DNA of 64,000 nucleotides, from the NCBI GenBank assembly GCA_964187785.1, contig OZ076409.1, forward strand, positions 74,712,001 to 74,776,000. Direction: 5' to 3'. The stretch is from Amphiscolops sp. MND2022 (Eukaryota). Under the pieces are notes generated by a model. It saw only the letters and a list, made by a program, of their open reading frames with translations, was not told the DNA's origin and ran no database searches. The translations under genes were made by a program, and so were the position numbers. Below, piece after piece: positions 8,550 to 31,617 of this stretch (positions are counted from its first letter, which is position 1; each line of letters starts with the position of its first letter).

Positions 8550-9209
8550 CCCCTTTTTGTGACCGCTTTTTGACCTTGTGCACCAAAATGCCAACATCTT
8601 GAGGCCTAATGAGGCATTCAAATCTGTACAAAGATAAAATGTTAGACAACCGAAGTCCCGGAAGATCTTTAGCATATACCGGAAGTTACCCCCCATGACC
8701 GGAAGTTACCCAATGTGACCGGAAATGGTCCAAAAATTAATGTAAAGTTGAATTTTTCACTATTTCAAGACCACTTAATTGAAACTTTTCAATCTCAAAA
8801 CTAGCGTACTGGCTTGTTTTGCTGAATTTATGAAAATTGATGAGCTCTATCGCCCCCGATAGCCTTCGAAGTTGACCTTGCGTCAACTTTGGAGGCTATC
8901 GATAAAGAAAAATGAACAACAAAGTACATTGTTGCTCTCGTTTTTTTCCCGTTGTTTTTCCTCAAACATTCTTGAGACATATACATGGCCGTTAGTTGAA
9001 ATCAATATTTAGCCCATGTTATAGCTGGAGCAGCGAAGCGTTACACAGACTAGTGTGGTTTTGAAATCACACTATTTAAATTAACAACTGACCGTCTTAG
9101 TCAACTCCACACATTCATACCAACGCCCACCGTCTGTGGGCATGCCGAGGCATGCCCTTCGACGACGTATGACGAATCCACTCCAACGACACCCGCAGTC
9201 CTCAGCTAG
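8550..9209 (+). mobile_element. Unit 0: family A, 5'-truncated
   Basis: Matches the 3' half of 15690-17078 from CCCCTTTTTGTGACCGC onward; ends CTAG. Confidence 0.85.
9121..9170 (+). other. Representative conserved 3' subterminal module CAACGCCCACCGTCYGT-RGGCATGCC-GA-GGCATGCCY-TTCGACGACG
   Basis: Intact in 25 of 32 unit ends, disrupted in 2 and absent in 5; 9-bp perfect stem at 9138-9157. Confidence 0.9.
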
Positions 9210-10280
9210 GTGGTCAAGGGGGATGCCCATCAGAAAACATTGCGAGGCCGGGGAGGGTCCCGAGAGCCGAGCACATTCTATCAATTCCTACCTTCAGGAT
9301 TGCGAAGTATTTTAACCGATCTCGAAATTCACCCGTAGGATTTGTCTGAAACTTTGCATGTGGCTTTATGACAAAAATTTAAGAACTTTTTTCTGCTGAC
9401 GTTTTTCCAGGAAAATTCATTTTGTAGGGTTTTTTTGCGTTTTTTTTGGTTTTTTTCATCTTTTTTCATCTTTGATTAATCAATGACCGAATCAAAGGCC
9501 ATTTTCACCATGAAGGAAAGCCCGTAGCGGCAAAGTGCACTTTTATGAAAATCATCAACGGTCAACGGTCTTTCGAACGGTCCAAAAAAATTTCCCCCCG
9601 GGGGAAACCAAAGTGCCGAAAAGTGCCAAAATTATTTTTTTGACTGAATCACTTTGATCAAATTGATGATTTGAGCAGCCGGAACGGTCCGCACGGTCTC
9701 GGACAATAAGGTCAAAAATTGTCAGCATCCAATGGGGGTTCCAAAAATGTAATTCGTTCACCTGTAGGAGACATCAGAAAAAAGTTGATTTTTTGGGGTA
9801 TATGTCATTATGAGTGATTGGATGAGAAATAATTGTATCACTTTCAGTTGGATATGATGCAGCACAGGAAGCAGCTGCAGCAAACTTGAAACTGATTATG
9901 GGGCTGGGGTTTACCCTCTGTATCGAGCAAAACAGCCCTAGGGCATAAGTTGTGCCAAAAAATGCCTCAAAGTGATGATTAGGTTATTGCAAATCGATCA
10001 GCAAAATTTATTGTCACCGGTGTTCCGAGAGTTGCGCAGCATCTCGCAGGAACAACGGTGCTTGCTTAGAAAGCAAAAAACCACAAAATCCCTTGAGTTA
10101 AGTTGACGGCAGTCACCATAGACATTCACTCGTCAGGGTGATGATATTTATCGTTCAATCCCAGAATAACTTACAAAAAATTGCTAGCCTCAATATTTCT
10201 TTTTCATACTCCATTAGCAAAGGTTGCGCTGTTAAGTTTAGGCCTTTTACTAGCAGTGCTCTAAATCGCTCCATCGCTAG
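9210..10280 (+). mobile_element. Unit 1: family B (1071 bp)
   Basis: Head GTGGTCAAGGGGGATGCCC; homologous to units 2 and 14; no GGCATGCC hairpin. Confidence 0.85.
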
Positions 10281-11349
10281 GTGGTCAAGGGGGATGCCCA
10301 TCAGAAAATATTGCGAGGCCGGGGAGGGTCCCGAGAGCCGAGCACATTCTATCAATTCCTACCTTCAGGATTGCGAAGTATTTTAACCGATCTCGAAATT
10401 CACCCGTAGGATTTGTCTGAAACTTTGCATGTGGCTTTATGACAAAAATTTAAGAACTTTTTTCTGCTGACGTTTTTCCAGGAAAATTCATTTTGTAGGG
10501 TTTTTTTGCGTTTTTTTGGTTTTTTTCATCTTTTTTCATCTTTGATTAATCAATGACCGAATGAAAGGCCATTTTCACCATAAAGGAAAGCCCGTAGCGG
10601 CAAAGTGCAATTTTATGAAAATCATCAACGGTAAACGGTCTTTCGAACGGTCCAAAAAAATTTCCCCCCGGGGGCAATCAAAGTGCCGAAAAGTGCCAAA
10701 TTTATTTTTTTGACTGAATCACTTTGATCAATTTGATGATTTGAGCAGCCGGAACGGTCCGCACGGTCTCGGACAATAAGGTCAAAAATTGTCAGCATCC
10801 ATTGGGGGTTTCAAAAAGTAATTTGTTCACCTGTAGGAGACATTTGAAAAAAGTTGATTTTTTGGAGTTTTGGCATTATGACTGATCGGATGATAAATCA
10901 TTGCATCACGTTGAGTTGCATTTGATGCAGCACACGAAGCAGCTGCAGCGAACTTGAAACTGCTTAGGGGGTTGGGGTTTACTATCTGTAACAAGCAAAA
11001 TATCCCTTGGGCAAAAGGTATGCCAAAAAGTGCCTCAAAGTGTTAATTAAGTAGTTGCAAATCGGCTAGCAAAATTCATTGTCACCGGTGTTCCGTGAGT
11101 TGCGCAGCATCTCGCGGGAACAACGGTGCTTGTTTCGAACGCAAAACCCAACATACCTCTTTGGTGACGTGACGGAGGTCACCATTGGCCTTTTTCGGCA
11201 GTGTGATGATATTTTTATTGTTGAGTTGTGAACAACATACACAAAAGGTTTAGCGTGGGATAATTGTTTGTATCATACTTCAGTAACAAACTTTCAACCG
11301 TTTTGTTTAGGCCTCTACCTAGCAGTGCTCTAAATCGCTCCATCGCTAG
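10281..11349 (+). mobile_element. Unit 2: family B (1069 bp)
   Basis: Same head and tail as unit 1, with a diverged 3' half. Confidence 0.85.
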
Positions 11350-14300
11350 GTGGTCAGTGCTGTTGCGTTCATTTTTTTCCGGCCGTGGGGGAGGGCCCCT
11401 CTGAGGCCGGTCATTTTTCAGGTAACAGCTTTCTTATACAAAAAAGCGGGAAAAAACCTCAGTGCTCAAATCCCAACCGTCAGAATGAGCTGAAATTTGG
11501 CATGTAGCTAGTGCATTGCAAATGATTAGGATGGGTTATAACGCTATGTTTGGCAAAATTGGTTTTGTTGCATTTTTTTTGTCATATAGGGCCAAAAATG
11601 GCCTTTTTTGCGTATTTTTTGCTTGACTAGCTAATAACTCGCGTTGGGTTGGTACTAGCGATACGGGTGTGGGGTATGGAATTGAAAGATTACCAAGTAC
11701 CTTGCTGATGACGTTATTTGATTTCCGCTCACATCACCCCCCACGCCGGAAATGCCCAATTTGTCACTTCCGGTCGCTATTTTTGACTTTTTTGGATGGA
11801 GTTAAAACCCATTTCCGGTGTGAAGGAGTAGGTTGAGCGCTCCAACCACGATTTACTAAAAGTAGGTTTAGACAAAGTCCTTTCAAGAAAAAAGTAATGT
11901 GAGCCCGCACCTATCACCCCCTCACCGGAAATAGGGGTCACGCCTCCTTTTTCTGTGTTGCAAAAGTGACATGTGCACATTTGTCCAACTCCGAAGCCCC
12001 GGAGCACCGTGGGACCCTTATACTTTCTAAACACCTATCCCACACGCTACCGGAAGTGACCGGAAGTTTCACCGGAAATGACATCCTTGGACCGGAAATG
12101 GTCAAAAAATGACTTTTCAATGCAAAATAGACACATTTGGTGCGATTTTTAGGCAAAAAGCATAGTTCGTGAAACGCTTGTTGCAGTTGGAAGGGCCATT
12201 GTTCAGCAAGAATGCGTACAGCATTACGTAGCACATCAAGTAGTTGATACTTTTTCGTCCATAATATCCTTAGGACCGGAAATGGCCATTTTTGAATCGG
12301 AAACTTCTTCAGCTTGATTTTTAACAGGTTTTTCCGCAATATTAGCGTAGGAATTGCTCGTCGGATGCTGTAGGTCTATTTTAAAACTAGCTAACTGCTT
12401 CTTAGAAATGTATTTCAGAAGTCCCAACCAATTCCAGAATACCGGAAATAAGAGTAATTGCCTCCTTTATGACCTTTGAATAATAATTTGTTAAAATCCG
12501 CATATTATTTTTTTCCACACTTGTTGCTGAGATTATATCTAAGCAATAACATGTGCTTGTCATGAAGTGCTGTAATGTGGGAGTTACGAATATTGCTATT
12601 TAAGAGTATTACATACGTGAATATCCGCCGTAATAAAGATTTTTTGAAACAACCACTTTTGAAGTCCTATAGATTGTCAGCACACCCGAAACAATTCAAG
12701 TTTCTAGTTTCGATTTTAAGGCTTCCGCGACTATTTAGTTGAGATGATAGTTTTCACGTTCTCTGCAAAACGTGCATTTCATTGTGTTTTTGACATTTAT
12801 TGGGCTGTTTCACATTGTAATTCAAAACTAATTGATCATACAATTTGGAACAATTGAAAATTTTCAATTGAACATTAAATGTTTTAATAGTTTCTCTTTC
12901 GTTGAAGATACTATTTTGTGGCCATTAGAACAGGTTGAATTAGTTGAATAAGTAGCCAGTGCGATACATCGTTTAATACATAGCGTTTGACATCGGTTTT
13001 TTTGCGAACAAAGACAAGCATGATTTGTTGAAAGTTTTTACCATATCGCTTCAAATCGGGTGTGACAAACAAGGAATTTCTCGTTTTATGTGCTACTCCG
13101 AAAGCAACCTGAAAACGCAAATCGATCTATTGAATTATCGAGATGAAAATAAGCATTTCAAGTCTGGATTTCAATTTAATTCTATCACTCCGGTCTATTT
13201 TTATGTCGCAAGAGTGATAAAGCGTGTTAGCAAGGTTAAACACATCGAACAATTTTAATAATAAAGTCTCCGGAAAGGGAAGAAAAAATGAGTTTTCCTG
13301 TCAAAACTATGATAACCACGTACGAAACATCAAGTTTTTGTATTGTTCAATAGTCCAAAACGTGAATGAAGTTTTTAAATATCCAAGCGTTTCTAATCAA
13401 GCATGCGTTTCAAATGTCTGACAGGGCAGCATCGTTCTCAAAAAACATTGCTTTCAATGTGGTTTGATACCAGCAAAACGAACGTAGGCACAACCAGATT
13501 CTCAAATTTCTTGCAAAACAGCCGATTTCTTTGAAAATCCTAATTGATTTCACAGGGTATATGGTGAAACCCTGTTGGATTCCAAAAATGAAAAGCTGAT
13601 TTCTTGGGTTTGCGAGATAAAAGACAACGGGAATCTGAAAGCAAGTCATCTCAATAAAATACCTGTTGCTCTTTAAACAAATGGACTTTAGTAGTCGAAA
13701 TTTTTTCTCAGACACTTTCGATCAGAGAATGTTTGAGTCCTTACGTTCGAATCAGGTTGGTTTCAGGTGGCTCGAAGTGCCAGCTGAACCAACCTTTCAA
13801 ATAAAGAAAAACCCCACATCTCCCTTCATGCCACGCTACCCCGTATAGCGTTTCAACTTGACAGAAGTTGGAACGTTTGATTTTGGCGTCGCTTGGGATT
13901 GACACACCAGTGTTGATACTAAATTTGGCAAAGAGAAATCGCAGAAATGATTGTTTCTTTTTTTCCCTTTGATTTAGTCTGTCGAGCGTACAAAGCAGTT
14001 TGGGAAACTAACTTGCATTTCCACTGAACGAAAAAAAGTAGTAGCCTTGCAAACTCCTGGAAAAGATTGAATCAGGTTTTCCTATTTGTGAGATCAGCTG
14101 TCACTCAATTATCAATTACTTTTTTAAAAATTTTTAGGAACAACTAACCTAACTCTGCTCGACTCTCTTGAATAATGCAACAATCGTTTACTGATCTGTA
14201 CTCGTGAGAAAAAAATCAACTGCAGGTCCAAAAACAATCTATATATCTTTGGTTTATTCCGTGCAAAGCTTTTTTTCACACCATGTGACTCAACTATAAC

Positions 14301-14420
14301 ATGTATGTAATGAAACCAATAACACCTTCAACTATCAACGCCCACCGTCCGTAGGCATGCCGAGGCATGCCTTTCGACGACGCGCGCCGGAAACAATCTA
14401 ACGGCGCCACCCGCTTCTGG
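11350..14420 (+). mobile_element. Unit 3: family C, singleton (3071 bp)
   Basis: Head GTGGTCAGTGCTG; CCGGAA-rich 5' third; unique AT-rich interior; terminal hairpin; ends CTGG. Confidence 0.7.
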
Positions 14421-15689
14421 GTGGCCGCGTCTTTTGTCGAACTTTAACCATGGAGGCGCGGGTAGGGTCCTGCGCCGACTTAGTGCCTTTACTATGATAC
14501 AAAAATAGGTACCTGAGTAAACGATCTCGAAGATGAGCCGTCAGAAATTCCTGAAAATTTGCATGTGGCCCCCAATTGGCGAGCATATGAAAAGTGTAGG
14601 AGGTCATTTTTCCCAAATTCCACTGTGAGACGAGATAAACGCGAAAAATGAGGTAAAAAATGGACCCATTTTTGATAAATTTTGCAATATCTCGTTCCAG
14701 AGGCATCGGAGGTACCGTATACCTGACGTGGAAAATGCTCGGCATGTGAAGGGGGTTACGTGGACAAATTTTCGTCCAAATCGGATAAAAATTGACAGAG
14801 TAATAACAAATTTTTTTGTTCATTTTGGCGACTTTTTCAGAAAACCCAGTTTATCTCTGCCGTTTTTTGCCCAGATTTTTTCTAGAACCTCTCCTAAAGG
14901 CCTCCCCTGGCCGGTTTACCTCCCAAAAAAACCATTTGGCCCTAAATACGAGGTTTCAGCGTTCCAGCATTATCGGGCGAAATTTTATATGACTTAGAAA
15001 ATTTTCAAAAATTTTCAAAATTTTTCTAAAAAAGTTCAGGCCGCCCAAAGTGAAGAAACTTCCACACAACTAGTATTGCAAGTGAATGCATGTGGAAAGC
15101 CCTGCACTTGACGAGGAAAATGCCATTTAGAACGTCTTTTTATCTTAACTTGATGTTGACTTATGATCTTTTGAGTAGCGTATAACACGTGATCACAGTA
15201 GTGAAAATCCTAATTTTCAATAATTTTCAAACAATAACGCATGAAAAGAACCTGGAAAAGGTTCCGATGGGTCATTTGGGATGTCGGAAGCATGTGTACC
15301 TTCCCGTAGTGTATAGCGGATATATTTGGGACTTATTAGAAATTGTGATATATTTTATACAAATCTTTGTTTCTCTCAGAATCTTATGCGGTTGAGTACA
15401 TTCCATCTCCCTCTCAGGGGAGATGTGAATGTACGTTTGCCAAATGCCTTGTAAAGTTCACATGTTTGATGGACTTAACTAAAAAAACAAGTGTGAGTTG
15501 CGTTTGCCGAATCGCTACAGTAAAAAATACTAAAACTTTAGTCAGATTGAATGGTTTTTGTCTTTAGTGTTTCTTCTTGTATAGCCGACTTCCACATCCA
15601 AATATCAACGCCCACCGTCCGTAGGCATGCCGAGGCATGCCTTTCGACGACGTATGCCAAAATCCAAATGCCACGCTGTCACTCTCTTG
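14421..15689 (+). mobile_element. Unit 4: family D (1269 bp)
   Basis: Head GTGGCCGCGTCTTTT; homologous to unit 13; ends CTTG. Confidence 0.85.
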
Positions 15690-17078
15690 GTGGTTGGGGC
15701 GGTCCCCAGAACGCACAAGGAGGCGCGGGGAGGGTCCTGCGCCGACGTAGAATAATTTCATATAATACTAGTATCCTACATGGGTGTTTTAGAAGCGATT
15801 TTGGAATCTAACCGTAGGATTTGGATAATTTTTTGCATGCGGCCATAACTCGAAATTCTAAGAACTTTTTCCTACTGTCATTTTCCCCGCAAAATGTTTT
15901 TTGTTGACTTATGGCCGAAAAACCGGAAATAACGTCCTTTTTAGACGTTATATCCGAAGTGTCGTCATAACTTTTTTCCAGTGCATGCTAGCGTTCTCGT
16001 TCACTTTTACACTTAGTTGCAGCATCTCAAAATACAACTGGTGGAAAATTTTGATTGCATTCGGATCACCCCCCATCGAGATAGAAGGGTTCCCCCCTCC
16101 AGTTTTACCCCCCAAATTTGCGAAAAAGCCAATTTTGAGCATGAAGCCGAGGATTTAGCGTACCCGCACCCTCCTGATGTTTTGTTGTACGTATTGGGGT
16201 CAATCGGACGACATGTGTGGTTTTCACCCCCAACCCCCCCTGGGACCGGAAATGACATTTTTTTGTGTTTTTTGGCAGAAATTAGCCTTTTTCATTATTT
16301 GGCAGTCGTTTTAGGGACTCCTAGCAGGATATCGAAAATGAAATACAACCTGATCACAACCCAGTGACAACATGTTGGCCATTTGGAGGTACCATCATGA
16401 CCGGAAGTGGGGTCAACTCCCCTTTTTGTGACCGCTTTTTGACCTTGTGAACCAAAATGCCAACAACTTGAGGCCTAATGACGCATTCAAATCTGTACAA
16501 AGATAAAATGTTAGACAACCGAAGTCCCGGAAGATCTTTAGCATATACCGGAAGTTACCCCCCATGACCGGAAGTTACCCAATGTGACCGGAAATGGTCC
16601 AAAAATTAATGTAAAGTTGAATTTTTCACTATTTCAAGACCACTTGATTGAACATCTTCATTCCCAAAACTAGCGTACTGGCTTGTTTTGCTGAATTTAT
16701 GGAAATTGATGAGCTCTATCACCCCCGATAGCCTTCGAAGTTGACCTTGCGTCAACTTTGGAGGCTATCGATACTGAAAATGAACAACAAAGTACATTGT
16801 TGCTCTCGGTTTTTTTCCCGTTGTTTTTCCTCAAACATTCTTGAGACATATACATGGCCGTTAGTTGAAATCAATATTTAGCCCATGTTATAGCTGGAGC
16901 AGCGAAGCGTTACACAGACTAGTGTGGTTTTGAAAGTACATTATTTAAATTAACAACTGACCGTCTTAGTCAACTCCACACATTCATACCAACGCCCACC
17001 GTCTGTGGGCATGCCGAGGCATGCCCTTCGACGACGTATGACGAATCCACTCCAACGAAACCCGCAGTCCTCAGCTAG
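15690..17078 (+). mobile_element. Unit 5: family A (1389 bp)
   Basis: Head GTGGTTGGGGCGGTCCCCAGAACGC; tail GTCCTCAGCTAG. Confidence 0.9.
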
Positions 17079-18350
17079 GTGGCCGGAAATTTTTTTTTTC
17101 AGCAAAATCTTTGCCATTGGGGGAGGGGCCCCGGATGGCCAGTAGTACGGGATAGCTTCCTACCAAATCCAGATGGAAAAAACGTGATTTCGGAAACTAG
17201 CCGTCAGAATTTGCTCAAATTTTGCATACGGCTTCCTATGACAATCCTAAGAACTAATCCCTACTGGCATTTTGCCCAAAAAACGCAAAAAGTTGGTCAA
17301 AATCTTAGTTTTTTGGTCAAAAAATAGCGTTTTTTCGAAAAATTTTTTTTCAGAGACAATTACTCGTAACTGGTTCACCCAGCGCAAAAACGCCTAGCTG
17401 ATTTATTGTTGGGCACTTCATGAGGAGTGCGTATACAAATTTTCGTCCAAATCGGATAAAAGTTGATTGAGAAATAACTGAAAATTTGGGGCATTTTTTT
17501 GGAAATTTTCGAAATCCCAGTCTATCTCTGCCGTTTTTTGCCCAGATTTTTTTCCAGACACTTTCCTAAAGACCTCCCCTGGCCGGTTTACCTCCCAGCA
17601 AAACCATTTGGCCCTAAATACGGAGTTTCAGCATTCCAGCAAACCCCGGGTAAAAGATAAATGACTTAGAATTTTTTCGAAAAATTTTCAAAATTTTTTT
17701 TTTCAAATTCAGGCCTCCCAAAGTCAAGAAACTTCCACACAACTAGGATTGCAAGTGATAGCATGTGGAAAGTGCTTGAATAGACGAGAATAATTAGCTA
17801 TTATACGACTCTGTAGCTTAACCTGACGTTGACTTATGATAATTTTAGTGTGAGCTTCGTATGTGCTGAAAAAATCAAAAAAAACCTAAAAGTCTTTTAA
17901 AAGTAATCAGAATACGTCCAATCAACCCCAGAGCTGTTAAATTGCTGTTGTGCAGTGGAGAAACACCATTTAGAGTGTTTTGACCCATTTTGATAAGTTT
18001 TTATACCGTCTTGTTCATCCGATAGCACAAAACAGTTGAGTACATTCCATCTCCCTCCTTGTGGGGGAGATGAGAATGTACTCGCTAAAAGTCAGGCACT
18101 ATAGCGCCCATTTTGTTTTATTCGACGCTAGTGATGCTATTGCACACGAATACAATAGTTTTGTCAAATCATGTTTGACATGATGAATCTTACTATACCT
18201 TTAGTTTACGTTAACCTACTAGTACAACATCGCATCCCTGACGTCAACGCCACATACTCGCATCAACGCCCACCGTCCGTGGGCATGCCGAGGCATGCCC
18301 TTCGACGACGTATGCCAAATAGCGCCACAGGGCGCAAACTTGTCCGCTAG
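17079..18350 (+). mobile_element. Unit 6: family E (1272 bp)
   Basis: Head GTGGCCGGAAATTTT; core shared with D/I/J/M. Confidence 0.8.
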
Positions 18351-20324
18351 GTGCGGGGGGGTAACCCCTACAAAGATATTGGAGGATTCGGGTAGGGTCC
18401 TGAATCCGAGTTCAGTGCTGCCAGCTATCGTTAGGGATTTGAGAAAATTTTGCCGATCTCGTGATCTAACCGTAGGATTTTAAAGTTGGAGCGGCCCCCA
18501 CCAGATTTTCCAAAGTTATTCGCCCCCCACCGGGTTCCAGCGTGATTGAAATTTTTTGACGGGGTACACGGGCGACCGTTAGGGGTCATTTTGAGGGTAA
18601 AATTTATATCCGGTCGCATAACTTTTTTCCTGTTGGTTTAAAACTTTGGGACCCTGCTAAAAGTTTCTTGACCGTGTTGCAGTGGCTCCGGAGGTCCAAA
18701 CCAAATTTTTCTATCTTGAAGCTATCTCCAAGTACCCCCCCGCCCAAACCGTTATTTTTCCGGAAACGCAGGTTTTTGACCCGGAAGGAGTCGTCTGAGC
18801 GCGGGGTCGTTAGGTGATGTATTGGGGACGGCCTTGAGACGAAGCGGGGGACATGTAGTTTGCCGACCCCAGTTTACCCCCCGGACGGGAAATGACCGTT
18901 ATTTGAGCGGGAAAAATGCCCCCCTCCACGTTTTACCGCTCTTTCCGGTGTGAAGGAGTGGGAGTAGCGCGTCGGGTGCCATATATCAAAAGTAGGTTTA
19001 GACAAGGACCTATCGGAAACATGTAGTTTGGGACCCCCTGGACCAACCCGTTAGCGGGAAATGGGGCTTCCGCCTCCTTTTTTTACTGCTAAAACCGTAA
19101 AATGGGCATTGAGGGGTAAATATCTCGTGAACGCGTGGAGCAATCGTGTCCATCACTTCTACAAGGTTTCATACCTATGATATGGTGCCTTCAGGGGGGC
19201 AAACAGATTTCCGCTATCTATCACCGTTACCGACTTGGCCCCCCAGCCTAACCGCTATGTGACCGGAAATGTCACTTTTTGAGCCCAAAGGGTCGGTCCC
19301 ACCCGGGGAACGTTAGGTAACTTATTGTAGTGCTAATTGAGACGAGTTGGGGGACATAGTTTCAGTCACCCCCCGTTACCCCTTAGGACCGGAAATGACC
19401 GTTATGTGGGTAAATTGGCATTTTTTGTACTTTTTGAAGGGCATTTAGATGCGGAAGGAGTGGTAATAGGGGCTTGGACACTATATGAAGGAAGGGAGGA
19501 CGTGAGGCGAGCATTCGAAAATAACCGTTATGTTGACCCTAAAGACCCCCTGGTACCGGAAGTGACCCGTAATGGTCAAATTTTGTGTTTAAAGGGTACA
19601 AATGTTTGGTGTTTTATGGATAACAGTACCTATTGGGTGTTTCGACGGTCTGCAGTCGTGAACATAGTCATGAAACCTTGTGGGGGGTAACAGTATATAG
19701 CACCGAAAGTCCAAACCGTTGGAGACAGGATAAGTTTTTTTGGTTTTAAAATGTCTTTCGGCCTACTTTTGTCGACTATTATGGACTATTTTTGAAAAAT
19801 AAAGTTTTTCCATATAGTTTCAGAGACTCCGAAACCTCAAGCAACATAACCGTTACCTTATGATAGCCTTTCAAGTTGGCCTGGTGTCAACTTGGAAGGG
19901 CTATCCTTCAAAAGTCATTAATCAAGTGTGTTTTTGAGTATGCTTGTTTTACTTTAGAATCAATTAGAGCTTCAAGAAAATATTGCCAACGATAAAAACT
20001 ATGTCGTGATGATTCCGTTATTAGAATAATAGTTAACAAATTTTGATAAAGTTGATTTTTTACATTTCAAATCTGTCCTAAATGCCAGAAAACCTCTTTA
20101 CCAAACAAATGGTATTGATTGAATTGTATAAAACAGCTAATAAAAGTTCAAATTGAATATTACCTTTCATTATGCAAGCTGAAACGTCATATTATAGTTT
20201 CATTAACGTCAACGCCACATACTTTACATCAACGCCCACCGTCTGTGGGCATGCCGAGGCATGCCCTTCGACGACGTATACCAAATTCCTCCAACACAAC
20301 ACCCCCGAGCGCGGTAGCAGCTAG
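18351..20324 (+). mobile_element. Unit 7: family F, singleton (1974 bp)
   Basis: Head GTGCGGGGGGGTAACCCC; GC-richer body; GATAGCC-type palindrome; terminal hairpin. Confidence 0.8.
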
Positions 20325-21713
20325 GTGGTTGGGGCGGTCCCCAGAACGCACAAGGAGGCGCGGGGAGGGTCCTGCGCCGACGTAGAATAATTTCATATAA
20401 TACTAGTATCCTACATGGGTGTTTTAGAGGCGATTTTGGAATCTAACCGTAGGATTTGGATAATTTTTTGCATGCGGCCATAACTCGAAATTCTAAGAAC
20501 TTTTTCCTACTGTCATTTTCCCCGCAAATTGTTTTTTGTTGACTTATGGCCGAAAAACCGGAAATAACGTCCTTTTTAGACGTTATATCCGAAGTGTCGG
20601 CATAACTTTTTTCCAGGGCATGCTAGCGTTCTCGTTCACTTTTACACTTAGTTGCAGCATCTCAAAATACAACTGGTGGAAAATTTTGGTTGCATTCGGA
20701 TCACCCCCCACCGAGATAGAAGGGTTCCCCCCTCCAGTTTTACCCCCCAAATTTGCAAAATAGCCAAATTTGAGCATGAAGCCGAGGATTTAGCGTACCC
20801 GCACCCTCCTGATGTTTTGTTGTACGTATTGGGGTCAATCTGACGACATGTTTGGTTTTCACCCCCCAACCCCCCCTTGGACCGGAAATGACATTTTTTT
20901 GTGTTTTTTGGCAGAATTTAGCCTTTTTCATTATTAGGCAGTCGTTTTAGGGACTCCTAGCAGGATATCGAAATTGAAATACAACCTGATCACAACCCAG
21001 TGACAAAATGTTGGCCACTTGGAGGTATCATCATGACCGGAAGTGAGGTCAATCCCCCTTTTTGTGACCGCTTTTTGACCTTGTGCACCAAAATGCCAAC
21101 ATCTTGAGGCCTAATGAGGCATTCAAATCTGTACAAAGATAAAATGTTAGACAACCGAAGTCCCGGAAGATCTTTAGCATATACCGGAAGTTACCCCCCA
21201 TGACCGGAAGTTACCCAATGTGACCGGAAATGGTCCAAAAATTAATGAAAAGTTGAATTTTTCACTATTTCAAGACCACTTAATTGAAACTTTTCAATCT
21301 CAAAACTAGCGTACTGGCTTGTTTTGCTGAAATTATGGAAATTGATGAGCCCTATCACCCTCGATAGCCTTCGAAGTTGACCTTGCGTCAACTTTGGAGG
21401 CTATCGAAACTGAAAATGAACAACAAAGTACATTGTTGCTCTCGGTTTTTTCCCGTTGTTTTTCCTCAAACATTCTTGAGACATATACATGGCCGTTAGT
21501 TGAAATCAATATTTAGCCCATGTTATACCTGGAGCAGCGAAGCGTTACACAGACTAGTGTGGTTTTGAAATTACATTATTTAAATTAACAACAGATCGTT
21601 TTAGTCAACTCCACACATTCATACCAAAGCCCACCGTCTGTGGGCATGCCGAGGCATGCCCTTCGACGACGTATGACGAATCCACTCCAACGACACCCGC
21701 AGTCCTCAGCTAG
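20325..21713 (+). mobile_element. Unit 8: family A (1389 bp)
   Basis: Full-length match to unit 5. Confidence 0.9.
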
Positions 21714-23131
21714 GTGGTCGGGTATTTTTTTTTACTCGTATATGACGTTTGCGAGGCTTTGGGGAGGGCCCCGTGCCGAGCCTGTTATCCGAAATTCACC
21801 ACTACCAGAAGTGGTATAAATAAGCGAGATCTCGAAAACTATCCATTAGAATTCTCTGAAATTTTGCATGTGGCTCCTAATCAATGAGCAATGAAAAAGT
21901 GTAGGAGTGACTGTCGCTGAAAAAATTGTCTTTGTGCATTTTTTGCGCAATTTTTGTCGCATTGTTGCGTTTTTTTATGTCATTTTCCACTTTGGAGGCA
22001 AAAAACTCATAGATGCTTTGTTCCTAGCGCAACGAGTGCGGAGCACGAAAAGTTGCAGCATCTTCAATTACGTGTGCTGAGAAAATTTGGTTGCCCTCGG
22101 GTTACCCCCCACAGAGACAGTTGGTACTTCCGGTTAATTTTGACCCCCTGAAATTGGGAAATTGGTAATTTTAGAAAGAAAGCCGTGGACTTAGCGTGTC
22201 CACACCCTGCTGAAGTTTTGTTAGGCATTTTGAGATAGATCTGATGACATGTGTTCAGTTCACCCCCATCACCCCCTGGACCGGAAATGAACTTTTTTGT
22301 GCACATTCAGACCGGAAGTCTCCATTTTCACCGGTAAGCAGTCCTTGAACGAGCAACTAGCAGAACATCAAAACTGAAATACAAGCTGGGGCCAACTTAG
22401 TGACCCTTTGTTGTTCAGTTATAGGTAACGCTATGACCGGAAATGGGGTCAAAACCCCCCTCTTGGTTGTTTTTTATCAATTTGACTAGTTTTTGGTCCA
22501 CATTCAAGTCGCGCAAGGCAATTGCAACAGTTTGAGCTCAAACTGCATGTTAACTGCGTAGATGTAACTGACAATGTCAGATACCGGAAGTAACCCCCTG
22601 TGACCGGAAGTTGTCATTTTTGAGCGGAAGTGGTCCAAAAAGTAGAGTAAATGCAGTTTTTCACTGCTTTTTAAGGCAAAGTTATTACTTTTTTCTATTA
22701 AAGTTATTACCTTTTTCTATCTTATTGTTTTTTCCTACTCACAAAACTTACATTGTAGCTTGTTTGGCCAAAGTTCTGGAAAGTGATTACCTCTATCACC
22801 CCAGATAGCCTTCCAAGTTGACCTTAGGTCAATCTTGAAGGCTATCTGTTCTGAAAACGATAAATAGTGGAAATTGGGTTTCTCGTTTCTCGTTGTTATT
22901 TTTTCCATAAAGTTAATTTGTTAAATAAGGCTTTTGTTCAACTGAGTAATTTGAATTTTGTCCAGAGGTGTCACACAGACGAATACCATTTCAAGTTGAA
23001 GTAAACATATGATGGCAATATTAGACAATATCACACACACTTACCAACGCCCACCGTCCGTGGGCATGCCGAGGCATGCCCTTCGACGACGTATGCCAAA
23101 TAGCGCCACAGGGCGCCCAAATGTTTGCTAG
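21714..23131 (+). mobile_element. Unit 9: family G (1418 bp)
   Basis: Head GTGGTCGGGTATTTTT; homologous to unit 21; body distantly related to A. Confidence 0.85.
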
Positions 23132-25318
23132 GTGGAGGTTATTTTATAATAATTAATGTGTTTTTTTCCGGAGTTTGTGGCTTTGGAAAAAACAAAAGGC
23201 GAGAAATCGGGCACTCCGGGCTGAACCGTATACACTCAAATTTCGCCCATTTTTTATACGATCTCGAAACTCAGCCGTACGATTTGGCTGAAAATTTGCA
23301 TGCGGCTACAAATTGAGATTCTAAGAACTATTTCCTGGTGACATTTTTTTGAAATTTTTGTGTACGTTTCCCCCCCGCCCCCTAAAGGGGCCAATTTTCC
23401 CCACTTTTGCACTTATGAGTCAAATTCTCAAAACTGGTGGATCTGAGCGTATTCCCGCCGGGGACAACTTTTAACAAGCGCTCCTCAGTAGACCTTCATG
23501 ACTTTTTACTTTGGTGGTACGTTCACCCCCCGAGGAGGAAATTGCGTTTTTGTGACTTCCGGTCGAGGCTTTTTTCACCCAAAAATTAGATTTAAGCCAG
23601 TTTTGAGCAGGAAGGAGTGGATTTAAAGTGCCTGTACCCTGCTAAAAATTTGTTGGGCTTGTAGCGATATATCTCATACCAAGTCTGGTTTTCAACCCCA
23701 AACCCCCCTTGAGACCAAAATTCACCCAAAGTTTTTTACCTCTGTTTGTAGTTTTTTTACCGAATATCGTCTTTTCCATGGGTAAGGAGTTGAATTAGGG
23801 GCTCCTAATAGGGTACCAATGTTCAAGTACACTTGCAGTGCAACTGATTGACCCTTTTTGGGCCTCTCCTGTGTTCGGCAAGGACCGGAAGCGGTGTAAC
23901 CCCCCCTTTTTTGACGTTTGTTGACCTTGAGACTCGCGCTTAGATGACGTTTATGTCGCGCGAATCCTACAAACAAGTATTAGGATGACATGCTAGCCAA
24001 CTAGAGAGCAGTAAGGGAAACAATATCATACCGGAAGTAACCCCCCGTGACCGGAAGTTGTCATTTTTGACCGCAAATGGTCCAAAACCTAGCGTAAAAG
24101 CAGTTTTTCATTGCTTTTAAAGTCAACTTCTTACATTTTTCAATCTGCGCGAGCTTTTCTTCAGGTTCGTTTTTGTTGCCAGTGCACAGCAACGAATATA
24201 CAACTGTAAAATTTTCGCTATAAAATTGTCGGAGAGAGAAATAACGGATTATTTGGACTTTTTTTCAAAAATATTAGTCTACATCTGTCATTTTTACCCA
24301 ATGTTACTCAACAGTAGAACCACAGGTTTTATTCTCTGCCCAAAAATATGCCTAACAAATTCACCTTTGGTTGCAGTTTGAGCATTCTAGCTTTACCTGG
24401 TCACAAGTTAGGGGACTTGAAAAAGTTTCAAAAATTTTTCCGAAAAATTTTTCTAAACGTCATGTCTCCCAGAGTTAAGAAACTTCCGCACAACTAGGAT
24501 TACAAGTGAATGCACGTGGTAAGACCTATAATTGGAGAGAAAAATTCAGTTTGGAACGTCTCTTTATCGTAACGTGACGTTAAGAGAAGTTGCTTTGAAT
24601 GCGAGCTTGATGAGACGTCGAGAAGTAACAGTGTGTAAATGGAACCTATGTCTCGACAAATACTCATCGGAATACATGAGATGAACCCCAATTACCCTCA
24701 ATTTCAGTTGCCTAGTACAACAACGTCTTCCAAGGACCCTTTAATCTTTTTGATAAGCGTTGAAGTCATCATTAGCTTGAGTTCGCAAGAAACAATTGAG
24801 TACATTCTCATCTCTCCCCATCGGGTGAGATGAGAATGTTTTTGCTAAAAGCCAGGTATTACGGCCCAATTTTGTTTTATTGCGACGCATTCTGTGCTTT
24901 AGCACATAGATACTTTTATTCCGTCTCACTTTTTGTATACACTCTGATTTGTTGTTATAAATTTCTCGTCATTACTTTACATAAACTAATTACCATAAAA
25001 CTTTAACGTCAAAGCCACATTCATTTAGACGCCCACCATTCCGTAGGTATGCCGAGGTATGCCATTCAAAGATGTATGTCAAACGCAAATGCGATAAAAT
25101 TAGTGCTGAAAATCGGAAACAGTGACAAACAGTTTTGACTTTTTGATATTTGTTAGGTTTTCATATGGAACTTACACATCACTGACAATTCAAAACATTC
25201 CAGCTGACGCTCACATACAAACATCAACGCCCACCGTCTGTGGGCATGCCGAGGCATGCCCTTCGACGACGTATAGCAAATTCCTTTAATATCTACACCC
25301 AATTGCGGTAGCAGCTAG
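23132..25318 (+). mobile_element. Unit 10: family H (2187 bp)
   Basis: Head GTGGAGGTTATTTTATAAT; near-identical to unit 26. Confidence 0.9.
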
Positions 25319-27998
25319 GTGGTCGGGGCCCGATGCCCTTCAAAAAACCGTTGCGCGTCGACGGGAAGGGTCCTGTCCGCGCCCGTGGGATAAGAACAAT
25401 ATATACGATGTCAAAAAGCCACTTTTTTCAACGATCTCGTAAACTAACCGTAGGATCCTGCTCAAATTTGGCATGTGGCTTGCAAATAGTCTGAAATGAA
25501 AAAGTGTAGGAGGTAATTTTTCTGTACTATCATTTTGTGTTGACTTATGAGCTAAAAACTACCCGTTCGACATCTTTTTTTCACTTTTTTCAAATTTTAG
25601 AGCTCATATCTCGTTTTCAGGTGCTCGGAGCGGTTCGCATGTGGACGTCAATATTGCTCAGCAGTGCTAGAGGAGTGCGTAGACAAATTTTCGTCCAATT
25701 CGGATAAAAATGGACTGAGTAATAACCGATTTTTTGACGAATTTTTTCGAAAATTTTTGAAATCCCAGTCTATCTCTGCCGTTTTTTGCCCAGATTTTTT
25801 TCCAGACACTCTCCTAAAGGCCTCCCCTGGCCGGTTTACCTCCCAAAAAAACCATTTAGCCCTTTTGCCGCAGTTTCAGCGTTCCAGGATTCCTTGAGTA
25901 AAAGATAAATGACTTAGAATTTTTTCGAAAAATTTTCAAAATTTTTTTTTTCAACTTCAGGCCTCCCAAAGTCGAGGAACTTCCACACAACTAGTATTGC
26001 AAGTGAATGCATGTGGAAAGTTCTCGAATAGACGAGAAAAATGAGCTATTGTACGACCCTGTAGCTTAATCTGACGTTGACTTATGACATTTTTAGTGTG
26101 AGCTTGAATAGGGGTTGAAGTGTCAAATAAAATTAAGTGTCTTTTCAGAGCCTATTACATCCTCCCACGTTATCGTAGCGGTTCGCATGTGGACGTCAAT
26201 ATTGCTTAGCAGTCTTAGGGGAGTTCGTATACAAATTTTCGTCCAGATCGGATAAAAATTGACTGAGTAATAACCGATTTTTTTGACGAATGTTTTCGAA
26301 AATTTTTGAAATCCCAGTCTATCTCTGCCGTTTTTTGCCCAGATTTTTTTCCAGACACTCTCCTAAAGGCCTCCCCTGGCCGGTTTACCTCCCAGAAAAA
26401 CCATTTGGCCCTTTTGCCACAGTTTCAGCGTTCCAGGATTCCTTGAGTAAAAGATAAATGACTTAGAATTTTTTCGAAAAATTTTCAAAATTTTTTTTTT
26501 CAACTTCAGGCCTCCCAAAGTCGAGGAACTTCCACACAACTAGTATTGCAAGTGAATGCATGTGGAAAGTTCTCGAATAGACGAGAAAAATGAGCTATTG
26601 TACGACCCTGTAGCTTAATCTGACGTTGACTTATGACATTTTTAGTGTGAGCTTGAATAGGGGTTGAAGTGTCAAATAAAATTAAGTGTCTTTTCAGAGC
26701 CTATGACATCCTCCCACGTTATCGTAGCGGTTCGCATGTGGACGTCAATATTGCTTAGCAGTCTTAGGGGAGTTCGTATACAAATTTTCGTCCAGATCGG
26801 ATAAAAATTGACTGAGTAATAACCGATTTTTTTGACGAATGTTTTCGAAAATTTTTGAAATCCCAGTCTATCTCTGCCGTTTTTTGCCCAGATTTTTTTC
26901 CAGACACTCTCCTAAAGGCCTCCCCTGGCCGGTTTACCTCCCAGAAAAACCATTTGGCCCTTTTGCCACAGTTTCAGCGTTCCAGGATTCCTTGAGTAAA
27001 AGATAAATGACTTAGAATTTTTTCGAAAAATTTTCAAAATTTTTTTTTCAACTTCAGGCCTCCCAAAGTCGAGGAACTTCCACACAACTAGTATTGCAAG
27101 TGAATGCATGTGGAAAGTTCTCGAATAGACGAGAAAAATGAGCTATTGTACGACCCTGTAGCTTAATCTGACGTTGACTTATGACATTTTTAGTGTGAGC
27201 TTGAATAGGGGTTGAAGTGTCAAACAAAATATTAAAATGGAAGCTAATTAAAATGGAAGCTAAGTCTAATCGGAATACGTTCAGTCAATCCCAGAGCTGT
27301 TCAATTGCCTTTGTTTAGTGCAACAAAACTATTTGAGGTCATTTGACTCATTTCTATTATGTTTTGAAACCGTTTTATCCATTCAATAGCATAAAACAGT
27401 TGAGTTCATTCCATCTCCCTTTCGGGGGAGATGAGAATGTACTCGCCAAAGACAAGGTGCAAGGGCCCCTACTTGTATCCTGCTACTTTTTCTGTGCAAC
27501 TGCCAACGGACAACATGACTTCGTGTGACTTTTTTCTTTGCAATGTGATTGGACATGTTGAACGTTCAGTCCTTACCTTTCCACAGCATTCAACTTTCGA
27601 TGGGTCGGGGCCCGTTGTCCTGTAAATGACATCTGCGCGTCTACAGCGAGAGTTCTGGCCTCGCTCTTAGCAGAAGACAATGTGACGTAGTCAAATCGCC
27701 AATTTTTAACGATCGCGGCGAATCTACGAAGAATCGTACTTGAGTTTCTTTGGTTACTGTGAGATTTACGATATCAAAAAAATTAGGACATGCCATTTTT
27801 TCAAACCAATTTTTGGTCATAAATTCTTCCAAAGAAACAGAACAACGCTAAACTATCATTTATTTACATCGAATGAACCATCCAGTAGTGTTTCAAAATC
27901 ATTTTGCCAACACGAATCAGTTTCAAGGTGAGAAGCCAACATAAACTTTAAAGTTTTTCATATTAACACCTCGTGTACTCCACTGCTTTCACCGCTAG
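25319..27998 (+). mobile_element. Unit 11: family I (2680 bp) with internal triplication
   Basis: Head GTGGTCGGGGCCCGATG; ends CACCGCTAG; no GGCATGCC hairpin. Confidence 0.75.
25629..27225 (+). repeat. Three tandem copies of a ~549 bp segment inside unit 11
   Basis: AGCGGTTCGCATGTGGACGTCAATATTGCT at 25629, 26177 and 26726. Confidence 0.9.
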
Positions 27999-29276
27999 GT
28001 GCAAAAATCTATTGATTTGCCAAACACTTCGAGGGCGGGGTAGGGCCCCCAGCCCGAGTCAAAAGTCGAAGACAAACAACTTAAGGCAACTGTCGAATTC
28101 TCCTATCGATTTTCTAAACGAGCCGTCAGATTTGGCTGAAATTTTGCATACGGCTTCCTATAACAATCCTAAGAACTAATCCCTACTGGCGTTTTGCCCG
28201 GAAAATTCAAAAAGTGGGTCAAAATCTTAGTTTTTTGGTCGAAAAATGGCGTTTTTTGGAAAAAATTTTTTTAAGAGCCCATATCTCGCTCCCAGGTGCC
28301 CGTAGCAACCAGACCTCGGACGGTACTATTGCTGGGCACTTTGTAAGGAGTCCGTAGACAAATTTTCGTCCACATCGGATAAAAAATGACTGAGTAATAG
28401 CCGTCATTGGGACGCATTTTTTCGACTTTTTTCGAAAACCTAGTCTATCTCTGCCGTTTTTTGCCCAGATTTTTTTCCAGGACCTCTCCTAAAGGCCTCC
28501 CCTGGCCAGTTTACCTCCCAGAAAAACCATTTGGCCCTTTTGCCGCAGTTTCAGCGTTCCAGGATTCCTTGAGTAAAAGTAAAATGACTTAGAATTTTCT
28601 CAAAAAATTTTCAAAATTTTTTTTTGAACTTCAGACCTCCCAAAGTCAGGAAACTTCCACACAACTAGTATTGCAAGTGAATGCATGTGGAAAGTGCTCG
28701 AATAGACGAGAAAAATGAGCTATTATAAAGCTCTGTAGCTCAACCTGACGTTGACTTATGATAATTTTAGTGTGAGCTTGCTATGTGAGAAAAAATTTCA
28801 AAAATTGAAAATCGAAGTTAAGTCTCATCCAAAACTCTTCGGAATACGTTCAATCCATCCCAAAGCGGTTTGTTCCCAGTTGTATGGTGCAGCAACACCA
28901 TTAAAGGTCATTTGGCCCATTTTTATAACTTTTGACGCCGTCTTATCCATTTGAAAGTTCGAAACAGTTGAGTACATTCCATCTCCCCTACGTGGGAGAT
29001 GGTAATGTACTCGCAAAAAGCCAAGGTCCTACCGCCCTATTCTATCCGGCGTTGCATCAGAAATGCAGTAGCATGAGCTCCAGGTTGTTTGCAGTAGCCT
29101 TTACGTATGTTGTGACTATGTATTACAACTCTGTTACTAAACATGAAAAAATTGTTTCAATCCCAAAAATTTTCATTTCAACTTTAGTATGTCACCAATA
29201 AACATATATGCATCTTTCCTACTACAACCACCCTACCACCCGGCCCCTTGTCCACTGTTCAACCGTGCACGTCTAG
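27999..29276 (+). mobile_element. Unit 12: family J (1278 bp)
   Basis: Head GTGCAAAAATCT; body related to E; no GGCATGCC hairpin. Confidence 0.8.
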
Positions 29277-30547: not shown

Positions 30548-31617
30548 GTGGTCAAGGGGGATGCCCATCAGAAAATATTGCGAGGCCGGGGAGGGTCCCG
30601 AGAGCCGAGCACATTCTATCAATTCCTACCTTCAGGATTGCGAAGTATTTTAACCGATCTCGAAATTCACCCGTAGGATTTGTCTGAAACTTTGCATGTG
30701 GCTTCATCTTAAAAATTTAAGAACTTTTTTCTGCTGACGTTTTTCCAGGAAAATTCATTTTGTAGGGTTTTTTTGCGTTTTTTTGGTTTTTTTCATCTTT
30801 GTTCATCTTTGATTAATCAATGACCAAATCAAAGGCCATTTTCACCATGAAGGAAAGCCCGTAGCGGCAAAGTGCACTTTTATGAAAATCATCAACGGTC
30901 AACGGTCTTTCGAACGGTCCGAAAAAATTTTCCCCCGGGGGCAACCAAAGTGCCGAAAAGTGCCAAATTTATTTTTTTGACTGAATCACTTTGATCAAAT
31001 TGATGATTTGAGCAGTCGCAACGGTCCGCACGGTCTCGGACAATAAGGTCAAAAATTGTCAGCATCCAATGGGGGTTCCAAAAATGTAATTCGTTCACCT
31101 GCAGGAGACATCAGAAAAAAGTTGATTTTTTGGAGTTTTGGCATTATGACTGATCGGATGATAAATCATTGCATCACGTTGAGTTGCATTTGATGCAGCA
31201 CACGAAGCAGCTGCAGCGAACCTGAAACTGCTTAGGGGGCTAGGGTTTACTATCTGTAACAAGCAAAATATCCCTTGGGCAAAAGGTATGCCAAAAAGTG
31301 CCTCAAAGTGCTAATTAAGTTGTTGCAAATCGGCTAGCAAAATTCATTGTCACCGGTGTTCCGTGAGTTGCGCAGCATCTCGCGGGAACAACGGTGCTTG
31401 TTTCGAACGCAAAACCCAACATACCTCTTTGGTGACGTGACGGAGGTCACCATTGGCCTTTTTCGGCAGTGTGATGATATTATTATTGTTGAATTGTGAA
31501 CAACATACACAAAAGATTTAGCGTGGGATATTTGTTTGTTTCATACTTCAGTAACAAACTTTCAACCGTTTCGTTTAGGCCTCTACCTAGCAGTGCTCTA
31601 AATCGCTCCATCGCTAG
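30548..31617 (+). mobile_element. Unit 14: family B (1070 bp)
   Basis: Homologous to units 1 and 2. Confidence 0.9.

What the first reader, a model, noticed from the sequence alone, without database searches (positions are those of the whole stretch)
9138..9157. 3' subterminal hairpin GGGCATGCC-GA-GGCATGCCC with compensatory base change
Seen 40-55 nt before CTAG in 25 units. The outer pair is G-C in 19 copies and A-T (AGGCATGCC..GGCATGCCT) in 6 copies (units 3, 4, 13, 17, 24, 25; e.g. 14353-14372), and it is never mismatched. The loop varies: GA, AA at 43662-43681, TA at 36313-36332. Flanking CGTC...GACG can extend the stem across a 3x3 internal loop. Known: Helitrons have a GC-rich hairpin about 10-15 nt upstream of the terminal CTRR; here it is much farther away. 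Inference: a structural termination, origin or recognition signal.
Basis: partly seen in the sequence, partly recalled or inferred. Interest (0 to 1): 0.7.

Follow-up and report, generated by a model that had tools for sequence, protein, structure and literature searches.

The report
Palindrome in self-stacking mobile DNA array
The palindrome is real, but it is an optional part near the end of gene-less mobile DNA units that stack head to tail at one short junction sequence into a row of more than 30 units, an arrangement that fits no transposon end pattern I could find described.

Summary
Observation confirmed: 25 copies (19 G-C, 6 A-T), 39-54 nt before CTAG. The reading as a Helitron-like terminator shown by covariation is only partly supported. 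Only one pair varies, 8 of 9 stem pairs are invariant, and unpaired flanks are equally conserved. The change also fits a tandem protein-binding site, because the 20-mer matches the p53 consensus at 19-20 of 20 positions. Seven of 32 units lack an intact copy, including two identical copies with different neighbours. The larger finding: 8550-64000 is a co-oriented array of 32 non-coding 1.1-3.1 kb units from 13 families joined at CTAG|GTG. What is common to the units is the head: a sequence block (31 of 31) and a truly covarying, + strand-biased hairpin (27 of 31; stem kept in the other 4). A metagenome contig (L001) repeats palindrome, junction and head. Best model (45%): non-autonomous elements moved by a rolling-circle HUH enzyme that inserts at resident end-to-start junctions. 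Rival: Crypton-like tyrosine recombinase (30%). No enzyme was found and no genome was available. Helitron and HINE membership tests fail.

The parts
9138..9157 (+). The finding: 20-bp palindrome, also a direct repeat of a 10-bp palindromic half-site that matches the p53 consensus at 19 of 20 positions; 25 intact copies in the window
9121..9167 (+). 47-bp 3' subterminal module around the palindrome, conserved in primary sequence in 10 of 13 families and L001, paired and unpaired positions alike
   Evidence: 39 of 47 columns invariant in 11 representatives: 16 of 18 stem, 23 of 29 non-stem
9206..9212 (+). Junction core CTAG|GTG between unit 0 and unit 1; 32 such junctions in the window (30 CTAG, CTGG at 14417, CTTG at 15686); C and GGTG invariant
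9246..9268 (+). 5' subterminal hairpin of unit 1 (invariant GGG-DAGGGN-CC core, family-specific covarying stem), 38-48 nt after the junction
18384..18407 (+). Same 5' hairpin in unit 7 with a different, fully complementary stem, including a G-T pair on the + strand
9306..9423 (+). Conserved head block starting 94-123 nt after each junction, present in 31 of 31 complete units
   Evidence: leave-one-out profile finds it in 13 of 13 families; L001 E 4.8e-20
8550..64000 (+). Head-to-tail array: 5'-truncated unit 0, 31 complete units of 1069-3071 bp in 13 families, and the start of one more; runs off the window on the right
36387..37771 (+). Unit 18, with the palindrome destroyed (37684-37735) by a replacement copied from the sequence just upstream
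55269..56652 (+). Unit 27, 100% identical to unit 18 (one 1-bp gap), same broken palindrome, different neighbours on both sides
25029..25080 (+). Example of a decayed internal copy of the 3' module about 200 nt upstream of the terminal one (10 such copies, in families I and M)
27603..27717 (+). Decayed second head inside unit 11 (71% identical to its own head): a fossil junction, i.e. two units fused

Best explanation
The palindrome is the core of a 47-bp, sequence-conserved, accessory cis-element near the 3' end of non-autonomous mobile DNA units. SHOWN: each unit has fixed ends (5' GTG, 3' CTAG), a universal head (structured hairpin plus conserved block) and an optional tail module; units of 13 families were placed one by one at resident end-to-start junctions, in one orientation, with nothing added between them. 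INFERRED: an enzyme encoded elsewhere, most likely a rolling-circle HUH nuclease (Helitron/IS91-like), nicks at G|G, displaces the + strand starting from the head, and closes a circle at CTAG. The circle's junction has the same form as every junction in the array, so strand transfer into a resident junction inserts the unit and rebuilds a junction on each side, and the array keeps growing. The tail module is bound or folds to favour ending at the next CTAG, but is not required; failed ends and tail swaps gave the fused and mosaic families.
For: Heads and tails travel with their own unit and the boundary lies inside the core; 28 of 32 junctions are different family pairs and repeated pairs are not in excess (2 against 3.2). 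Adjacent same-family units are only 90-97% identical while distant ones reach 99.8-100%, so this is not concatemer insertion or simple unequal crossover. The head is universal (31 of 31) and the tail module is not (25 of 32), the same asymmetry as in Helraiser, where the left end is essential and the hairpin is not (PMC4778049, passages). The head hairpin covaries (own arms -8.7 against crossed arms -6.0 kcal/mol, permutation p about 5e-5) and favours the + strand (12 of 13; 12 G-T against 1 A-C), as expected for a single-strand signal. 119 of 149 CTAG sites in the array are internal and carry no head, so more than CTAG is recognised. [quoted passage not shown] L001 repeats the module, a 48-nt gap, CGAG|GTG, the hairpin and the head block.
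Against: No transposase or remnant: 0 array ORFs pass a Pfam cut-off among the 79 of 131 ORFs scanned, so the enzyme class is inferred from anatomy only. Known Helitrons start with TC and insert at A|T; neither holds here. The identity of U18/U27 could come from gene conversion instead of transposition (their shared diagnostic sites span positions 241-1334 of 1393). The invariant part of the core reads CACC on the bottom strand, like the core of an active Crypton (PMC9977147). + strand folding would also fit an RNA. No empty site, array edge or solo copy was available. U4, U5 and L001 share one stem, so the 13 hairpins are not all independent.
Confidence: 0.45

Rival explanations
1. Crypton-like elements: a tyrosine recombinase recombines the short core shared by both ends (GGTG to CTAGGTG) on a circular intermediate with an identical core in the genome. 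Each insertion regenerates the core on both sides, so repeated insertions give core-unit-core-unit arrays. The tail module and head block are then accessory (arm-type) binding sites.
For: One core per junction, one orientation, no inverted repeats at the ends. CTNGGTG occurs 32 times on the + strand of the array, always at a junction. CryptonF-1_cRei ends in CACCG, targets CAYCG and gains copies (PMC9977147, passages); the invariant core here is CACC on the bottom strand. Cryptons have 4-6 bp terminal direct repeats and non-autonomous derivatives in animals (PMC3212892, passages). An ACGCCCAC-like word recurs at about 20-bp spacing near several tails.
Against: No conserved inverted repeats flank the core (information falls below about 1 bit outside 8 positions), whereas simple recombinase sites have 11-13 bp arms (PMC3212892). 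The same paper found no terminal repeats in animal CryptonA/I. 3 of 33 junctions vary at the two middle letters of CTAG. A 4-letter match to one algal element is weak. The strand-biased hairpin is not predicted.
Confidence: 0.3
2. The 20-mer works as a double-stranded binding site for a host p53-family factor (two adjacent decamer half-sites), or for another tetrameric protein, and not as a hairpin. It could couple the elements to germline or stress states. This can hold together with either mobility model.
For: 25 of 25 intact copies match RRRCWWGYYY x2 with no spacer at 19 or 20 of 20 positions; block shuffles give 0.2 such sites per window (consensus as given in 10.1101/2025.10.01.679811, passage). 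All variation seen in 26 terminal copies keeps the consensus: G/A at position 1, C/T at 20, and free change only at position 10, the one mismatched position. A 2-nt loop is too short for the drawn 9-bp stem: the predicted fold is 8 bp with a 4-nt loop. p53 sites are common in transposons (same paper).
Against: The 25 copies descend from one sequence, so this is a single match, and a GC-rich double palindrome is biased towards matching. Position 10 is G in 24 of 26 copies, not the preferred pyrimidine. The flanks are conserved as strongly as the site. Several decayed internal copies lose the core C yet keep pairing. The host is not known and no binding data exist.
Confidence: 0.2
3. One reading: canonical Helitrons whose terminator hairpin is this palindrome, held by selection on pairing.
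For: 3' CTRR in 31 of 32 ends; constant position; outer pair never mismatched in 26 of 26 terminal copies; a true compensatory change in one internal copy (U22).
Against: No 5' TC, no A|T junction, distance 39-54 nt against 11 nt in Helraiser; absent or broken in 7 of 32 precisely ended units; a single varying pair.
Confidence: 0.07
4. A satellite-like array: ancient units spread only by unequal crossover and conversion, with the conserved module acting as a recombination hot spot and no transposase involved.
For: Mosaic families and swapped tails; mild clustering of families along the array (adjacency p 0.09, spread p 0.06).
Against: Unequal crossover copies blocks and makes neighbours identical; here repeated blocks are not in excess and neighbours differ by 3-10%. 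Boundaries fall at a 7-bp core, not in the module. The same ends exist in an unrelated contig (L001).
Confidence: 0.06

Closest known systems
Helitron1 / HLE1 (Helraiser, PMC4778049; HELIANO, PMC11417382; passages read)
   Same: 3' CTAG, no terminal inverted repeats, essential left end with dispensable 3' hairpin, precise head-to-tail circle junctions, 3'-end bypass and replacement
   Different: 5' GTG instead of TC; junction G|G instead of A|T; palindrome 39-54 nt instead of 11 nt from the end; structured hairpin at the 5' end; mixed-family arrays of independently inserted units
IS91 family (PMC13181058; passages read) and TrwC integration into oriT (PMC3264647; abstract)
   Same: Target tetranucleotide resembles the element's own terminal tetranucleotide; subterminal palindromes at the origin end; leaky termination; HUH enzyme able to integrate into a copy of its origin
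   Different: Bacterial; encode their enzyme; IS91 uses any matching tetranucleotide, whereas 119 internal CTAG sites here are unused
Crypton tyrosine-recombinase transposons (PMC3212892, PMC9977147, PMC8969392; passages read)
   Same: Short core shared by both ends and by the target, regenerated on insertion; no inverted repeats; non-autonomous derivatives; CACC shared with the CryptonF-1_cRei core
   Different: No recombinase gene seen; no mixed arrays described in the passages read; animal CryptonA/I were reported without terminal repeats. I recall that Repbase holds non-autonomous CryptonV elements of fish with hairpin ends; this is recalled only and could not be checked.
Helentron HINEs / DINE-1 (PMC4067079; passages read)
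   Same: Non-coding, hairpins near both ends, a palindromic element 38-60 bp from the 3' end in mite HINEs
   Different: No subterminal inverted repeat pairing head with tail; no T-rich insertion site
Tandem TE dimers by repeated insertion at one site (10.1101/158386; passages read) and Helitron-derived tandem arrays (PMC12001565; passages read)
   Same: Target preserved at the junction so that insertions stack
   Different: Those arrays are single-family (2-7 repeats in the Xenopus study); here 13 families alternate over more than 55 kb
Replitrons (PMC10288648; passages read)
   Same: Orientation-specific, HUH-driven, insertion after RG (31 of 32 ends here finish in RG)
   Different: A direct repeat sits at both ends, so tandem copies would show it twice; reported from algae, plants and protists; fuzzy ends are not seen here

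Membership tests
Helitron1 (HLE1) | 3' CTRR | tested here: met
   30 CTAG + 1 CTGG of 32 ends; 1 CTTG; assumes the cut lies after CTAG
Helitron1 (HLE1) | 5' TC | tested here: not met
   GTG follows in 32 of 32 junctions and in L001
Helitron1 (HLE1) | Hairpin about 11 nt before CTRR | tested here: not met
   Palindrome lies 39-54 nt away; last 30 nt of 19 distinct tails have mean folding z -0.4, strong in 2 of 19 only
Helitron1 (HLE1) | Insertion between A and T | tested here: not met
   All 32 junctions are unit-to-unit with no A|T; no host-flank insertion was available
Helitron1 (HLE1) | RepHel partner with the same ends | not testable with these tools
   No genome held; no domain in 79 of 131 ORFs scanned
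Helitron2 / Helentron / HINE | Short subterminal inverted repeats pairing the two ends | tested here: not met
   Longest head-to-tail complement 6.46 nt within units against 6.42 nt across families, 13 representatives
Helitron2 / Helentron / HINE | T|T insertion site | tested here: not met
   No T run at any of 32 junctions
Helitron2 / Helentron / HINE | Hairpins near both ends | tested here: met
   Head hairpin in 27 of 31 (stem kept in the other 4); tail palindrome in 25 of 32
Crypton | Short direct repeat at both termini, same in all copies | tested here: inconclusive
   Each complete unit is bracketed by the same core, but in an array this cannot be told from end+start of neighbours
Crypton | Tyrosine recombinase partner; clean excision leaving one core | not testable with these tools
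   No genome, haplotypes or empty sites
IS91-like HUH elements | Target tetranucleotide resembles terminal tetranucleotide; palindromes at origin end | tested here: met
   By anatomy only; a tetranucleotide alone is not sufficient here
IS91-like HUH elements | Y2 HUH transposase | not testable with these tools
   No coding unit found
Replitron | Direct repeat at both ends of the element, RG target | tested here: inconclusive
   RG in 31 of 32 ends, but the core is single, not doubled, at junctions
DIRS / Ngaro retrotransposons | Inverted or split direct terminal repeats, internal complementary region | tested here: not met
   Self matches of 60 nt or more in only 3 of 13 representatives (U7, U11, U20), none in the A1-B1-A2-B2 layout
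Integron attC cassettes | Folded site whose two core boxes pair symmetrically around the hairpin | tested here: not met
   The CCACC complement lies about 80 nt before the junction but only about 20 nt from the palindrome centre, and is missing in 8 of 32 tails; attC layout recalled
p53 response element | Two RRRCWWGYYY decamers | tested here: met
   25 of 25 with at most 1 mismatch, 1 perfect; consensus
p53 response element | Binding and regulation by a p53-family protein | not testable with these tools
   No ChIP or binding data

The most novel reading that the evidence does not exclude
An undescribed group of eukaryotic (probably animal) mobile elements, neither Helitron nor Crypton by their ends, that integrates junction into junction and so builds integron-like, mixed-family cassette arrays of tens of kilobases. 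The covarying head hairpin is the recognition signal, and most cassettes carry a p53-family-type double half-site that links the array to host stress or germline control.
Probability: 0.2. Interest if true: 0.85.

Novelty: new variant of a known kind. Interest (0 to 1): 0.55.

Why it matters
The palindrome alone is a modest result, and a caution: one swapped pair in an otherwise invariant palindrome is not evidence of selected structure. The array is the interesting part. Thirteen diverged families all target the same 7-bp end-to-start junction, which implies a site-specific eukaryotic integrase that uses its own junction as a landing pad. Such an enzyme would be a candidate for targeted, repeatable insertion. 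The arrays would also be a place where fused and mosaic elements arise, as units 10, 11 and 20 show. The head hairpin, head block and core give exact search handles for the missing enzyme, so the HUH-versus-recombinase question is directly testable once the genome is in hand.

Tried and rejected
Own genome: none held, so no genome-wide count, empty site or autonomous partner. Rfam: 0 matches at gathering score over the window; 4 weak matches far below cut-off in 14200-23300, rejected as chance. tRNA/tmRNA: 0. Pfam: 79 of 131 stop-to-stop ORFs scanned (near-duplicates left out); the only hit above cut-off is a PAN domain outside the array. Collection scans for the tail module: 1 locus in metagenome contigs, 0 in viral contigs, 0 in prokaryote genomes. 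A loose head pattern gave 10 viral loci, but none had the module or similarity to any unit, so they were rejected as chance. Two stricter patterns gave 0. Phage BLAST: no match. Sequencing runs: one holder, X1, no RNA holder listed; 54 contigs laid, 9 at 99% or more identity, and none of the 8 of 59 pieces shown spans a junction, so it neither confirms nor questions the unit order. Pairing between a unit's own ends: none (-8.2 against -8.3 kcal/mol). A first small hairpin right after GTG: visible in several families but weak overall (mean z -1.0 in 16 heads). Polarised growth from one end: rejected, since near-identical pairs lie 9-16 units apart with more diverged units between. Reading the element on the bottom strand (head hairpin as terminator): disfavoured, since it leaves no conserved 5' base and turns 12 G-T pairs into A-C, but not excluded; Helraiser also tolerates stem but not loop changes. 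The model built was not used. Earlier findings by place and sequence: none. Ten literature searches showed no description of this arrangement. Repbase and the Kojima review that may cover CryptonV (not held) could not be seen, and no supplements were read.

Full report
1. Observation. The 20-mer at 9138-9157 is as described. The gap to CTAG is 39-54 nt. A profile search found 2 further terminal copies in which the palindrome is destroyed (U18, U27) and 10 decayed internal copies 224-252 nt before a junction. It found none in the first 9.1 kb of the window, and 5 units (U1, U2, U14, U11, U12) have no trace.

2. Setting. From 8550 to the end, the window is a head-to-tail array: 32 junctions (30 CTAGGTG, one CTGGGTG, one CTTGGTG) delimit a 5'-truncated unit 0 and 31 complete units of 1069-3071 bp. 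They fall into 13 families with 84-100% identity inside families. Tails follow the upstream unit and heads the downstream unit, so the boundary lies inside the core; outside C-T-A-G-G-T-G-S there is little conservation. No array ORF passes a Pfam cut-off among the 79 of 131 ORFs scanned; Rfam and ARAGORN find nothing. A PAN-domain exon-like ORF at 6770-7117 resembles eukaryotic clusters whose few labelled members are animals, a weak hint of an animal host. No genome was held.

3. How the array was built. Of 32 junctions, 28 are different family pairs, and repeated pairs are not in excess (2 against 3.2 by permutation). Same-family neighbours are 90-97% identical, while U18/U27 (100%, one gap) and U10/U26 (99.8%) lie far apart with different neighbours on both sides. 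The U10/U26 diagnostic sites run from position 26 to 2217 of 2222. This points to whole units being copied singly into internal junctions; gene conversion is the alternative for these pairs. 119 of 149 CTAG sites in the array are internal and unused, and CTNGGTG on the + strand occurs 32 times, always at a junction. One metagenome contig, L001 (1 hit), shows a 68-70% relative of family C ending in the same module, a 48-nt gap, CGAG|GTG, the head hairpin and the head block, so the arrangement is not peculiar to this assembly.

4. The palindrome. On 20 of the 26 terminal copies (19 from the window plus L001), 8 of 9 stem pairs never vary and one pair is G-C in 13 and A-T in 7; the proposed extension has no change on both sides. 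The palindrome sits in a 47-bp module in which non-stem columns are nearly as fixed as stem columns (23 of 29 against 16 of 18 invariant in 11 representatives); the 10 bases after it are invariant in 26 of 26. The A-T form occurs in families B, C, L, in L001, and in two sister units of family M (100/100 support). Because the 18 bases between the two positions are identical, one conversion tract can move both changes, and tails are visibly exchanged between families. The 8-mer is itself palindromic, so the motif is also a direct repeat of a decamer. It matches the p53 consensus with at most one mismatch in 25 of 25 copies (0.2 per shuffled window; consensus in 10.1101/2025.10.01.679811), and every variant seen keeps that consensus. 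For folding: z is -2.7; a flanking C/T variant keeps a G-T pair on the + strand; decayed internal copies keep pairing through G-T pairs, one true compensatory change (U22), or a left flank rewritten as the complement of the right (family M). These last patterns are also what template switching at palindromes produces (recalled), so they show folding, not function. It is not an obligatory terminator: 7 of 32 units end exactly at CTAG without it.

5. The head is the constant signal. A GGG-DAGGGN-CC core starts 38-48 nt after the junction in 27 of 31 complete units (0.02 expected by chance). The other 4 (family I) keep a 7-bp stem around a long insert. Stems differ between families yet pair: own arms fold at -8.7 against -6.0 kcal/mol for crossed arms (permutation p about 5e-5; 12 family representatives plus L001, family I left out, three sharing one stem). 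The + strand folds better in 12 of 13, with 12 G-T against 1 A-C appositions. A sequence block 94-123 nt after the junction is present in 31 of 31 units and is recovered leave-one-out in 13 of 13 families. There are no inverted repeats between a unit's two ends and no preferential folding of own-end joins.

6. Mechanism. Shown: fixed asymmetric ends, universal structured head, optional tail module, single-unit insertion at junctions, fused and mosaic families (a decayed head inside U11, mosaic U10 and U20). Inferred (45%): a rolling-circle HUH enzyme in trans starts at the head, ends at CTAG, and transfers the circle into a resident junction, which has the same form as its own. This combines features described separately: Helraiser's essential left end, dispensable hairpin and precise circle junctions (PMC4778049), IS91's target that resembles its own end and leaky termination (PMC13181058), and TrwC's integration into its own origin (PMC3264647, abstract). 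The main rival (30%) is a Crypton-like tyrosine recombinase: CryptonF-1_cRei ends in CACCG and targets CAYCG (PMC9977147), and the invariant core here reads CACC on the bottom strand. Against it, no symmetric arms flank the core, and animal CryptonA/I lack terminal repeats (PMC3212892). The p53-site reading (20%) concerns the palindrome only and is compatible with both.

7. Comparison and membership. It works like a self-targeting, circle-based DNA element. It is not a canonical Helitron (no 5' TC, no A|T, no hairpin about 11 nt from the end; definitions from PMC11417382 and PMC8969392) and not a HINE (no subterminal inverted repeats, no T|T; PMC4067079). Crypton, Replitron (PMC10288648) and IS91-type membership cannot be settled without the enzyme. 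Stacking by repeated insertion is known (10.1101/158386; PMC12001565; PMC13085455, for oriented Helitrons at chromosome ends), but the passages read describe single-family arrays or other targets. All papers were seen as search passages, except PMC3264647 (abstract and outline); PMC5753468 only names CryptonV. No supplements were read. Ten searches did not show this arrangement, but Repbase is outside the library and may already hold these families. Earlier AI notes on head-to-tail Helitrons and on prokaryotic self-stacking units were leads only.

8. Verdict. Observation confirmed, interpretation partly supported. The palindrome is an accessory subterminal element whose single covarying pair proves little. 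The surrounding system, a mixed-family array built at a 7-bp junction with a covarying head hairpin, is a new variant of a known kind with an unidentified enzyme. Interest 0.55.

Noticed in passing
window 6770-7117 (+): ORF with a PAN/apple domain (Pfam E 7e-6, above cut-off), probably a host exon 1.4 kb from the array.
   Followed up: partly
window 2283-2698 and 7861-8289: Two 95% identical copies of another repeat in opposite orientation; a related end starts head-to-head at 8295 and runs into the middle of unit 0 at about 8550, which may explain the truncation of unit 0.
   Followed up: no
window 50177-50220 and homologues in families C, F, I, J, K, M, N and L001 567-605: An internal hairpin of about 40 nt, perfect over 20 bp in family M, with a variable loop, shared by seven families and L001.
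   Followed up: partly
window 25319-27998 (unit 11): Three tandem copies of a 549-bp internal segment (97-98% identical) plus a decayed second head at about 27600.
   Followed up: partly
window 42056-42099, 50419-50451, 52788-52831, 61123-61166: In family M the internal decayed module has its left flank rewritten as a near-perfect complement of the right flank, as expected from template switching at a palindrome.
   Followed up: partly
window 37684-37735 and 56565-56616: The lesion that destroys the palindrome replaces 12 bases with 7 that repeat the sequence just upstream, like a templated repair at a break inside the palindrome.
   Followed up: partly
all junctions, e.g. window 18344-18355: The junction with its usual flanks resembles the core of the CTCF binding motif (recalled, not tested).
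   Followed up: no
window 11350-14420, 15690-17078, 18351-20324, 21714-23131: Families B, E, G and H carry 5-10 co-oriented CCGGAAR words each (ETS-like, recalled), some in 20-bp tandem spacing.
   Followed up: no
window 23132-23230 (family I heads): The head hairpin keeps its 7-bp stem although the conserved loop is replaced by an insert of about 40 nt; these units still reached 4 copies.
   Followed up: partly
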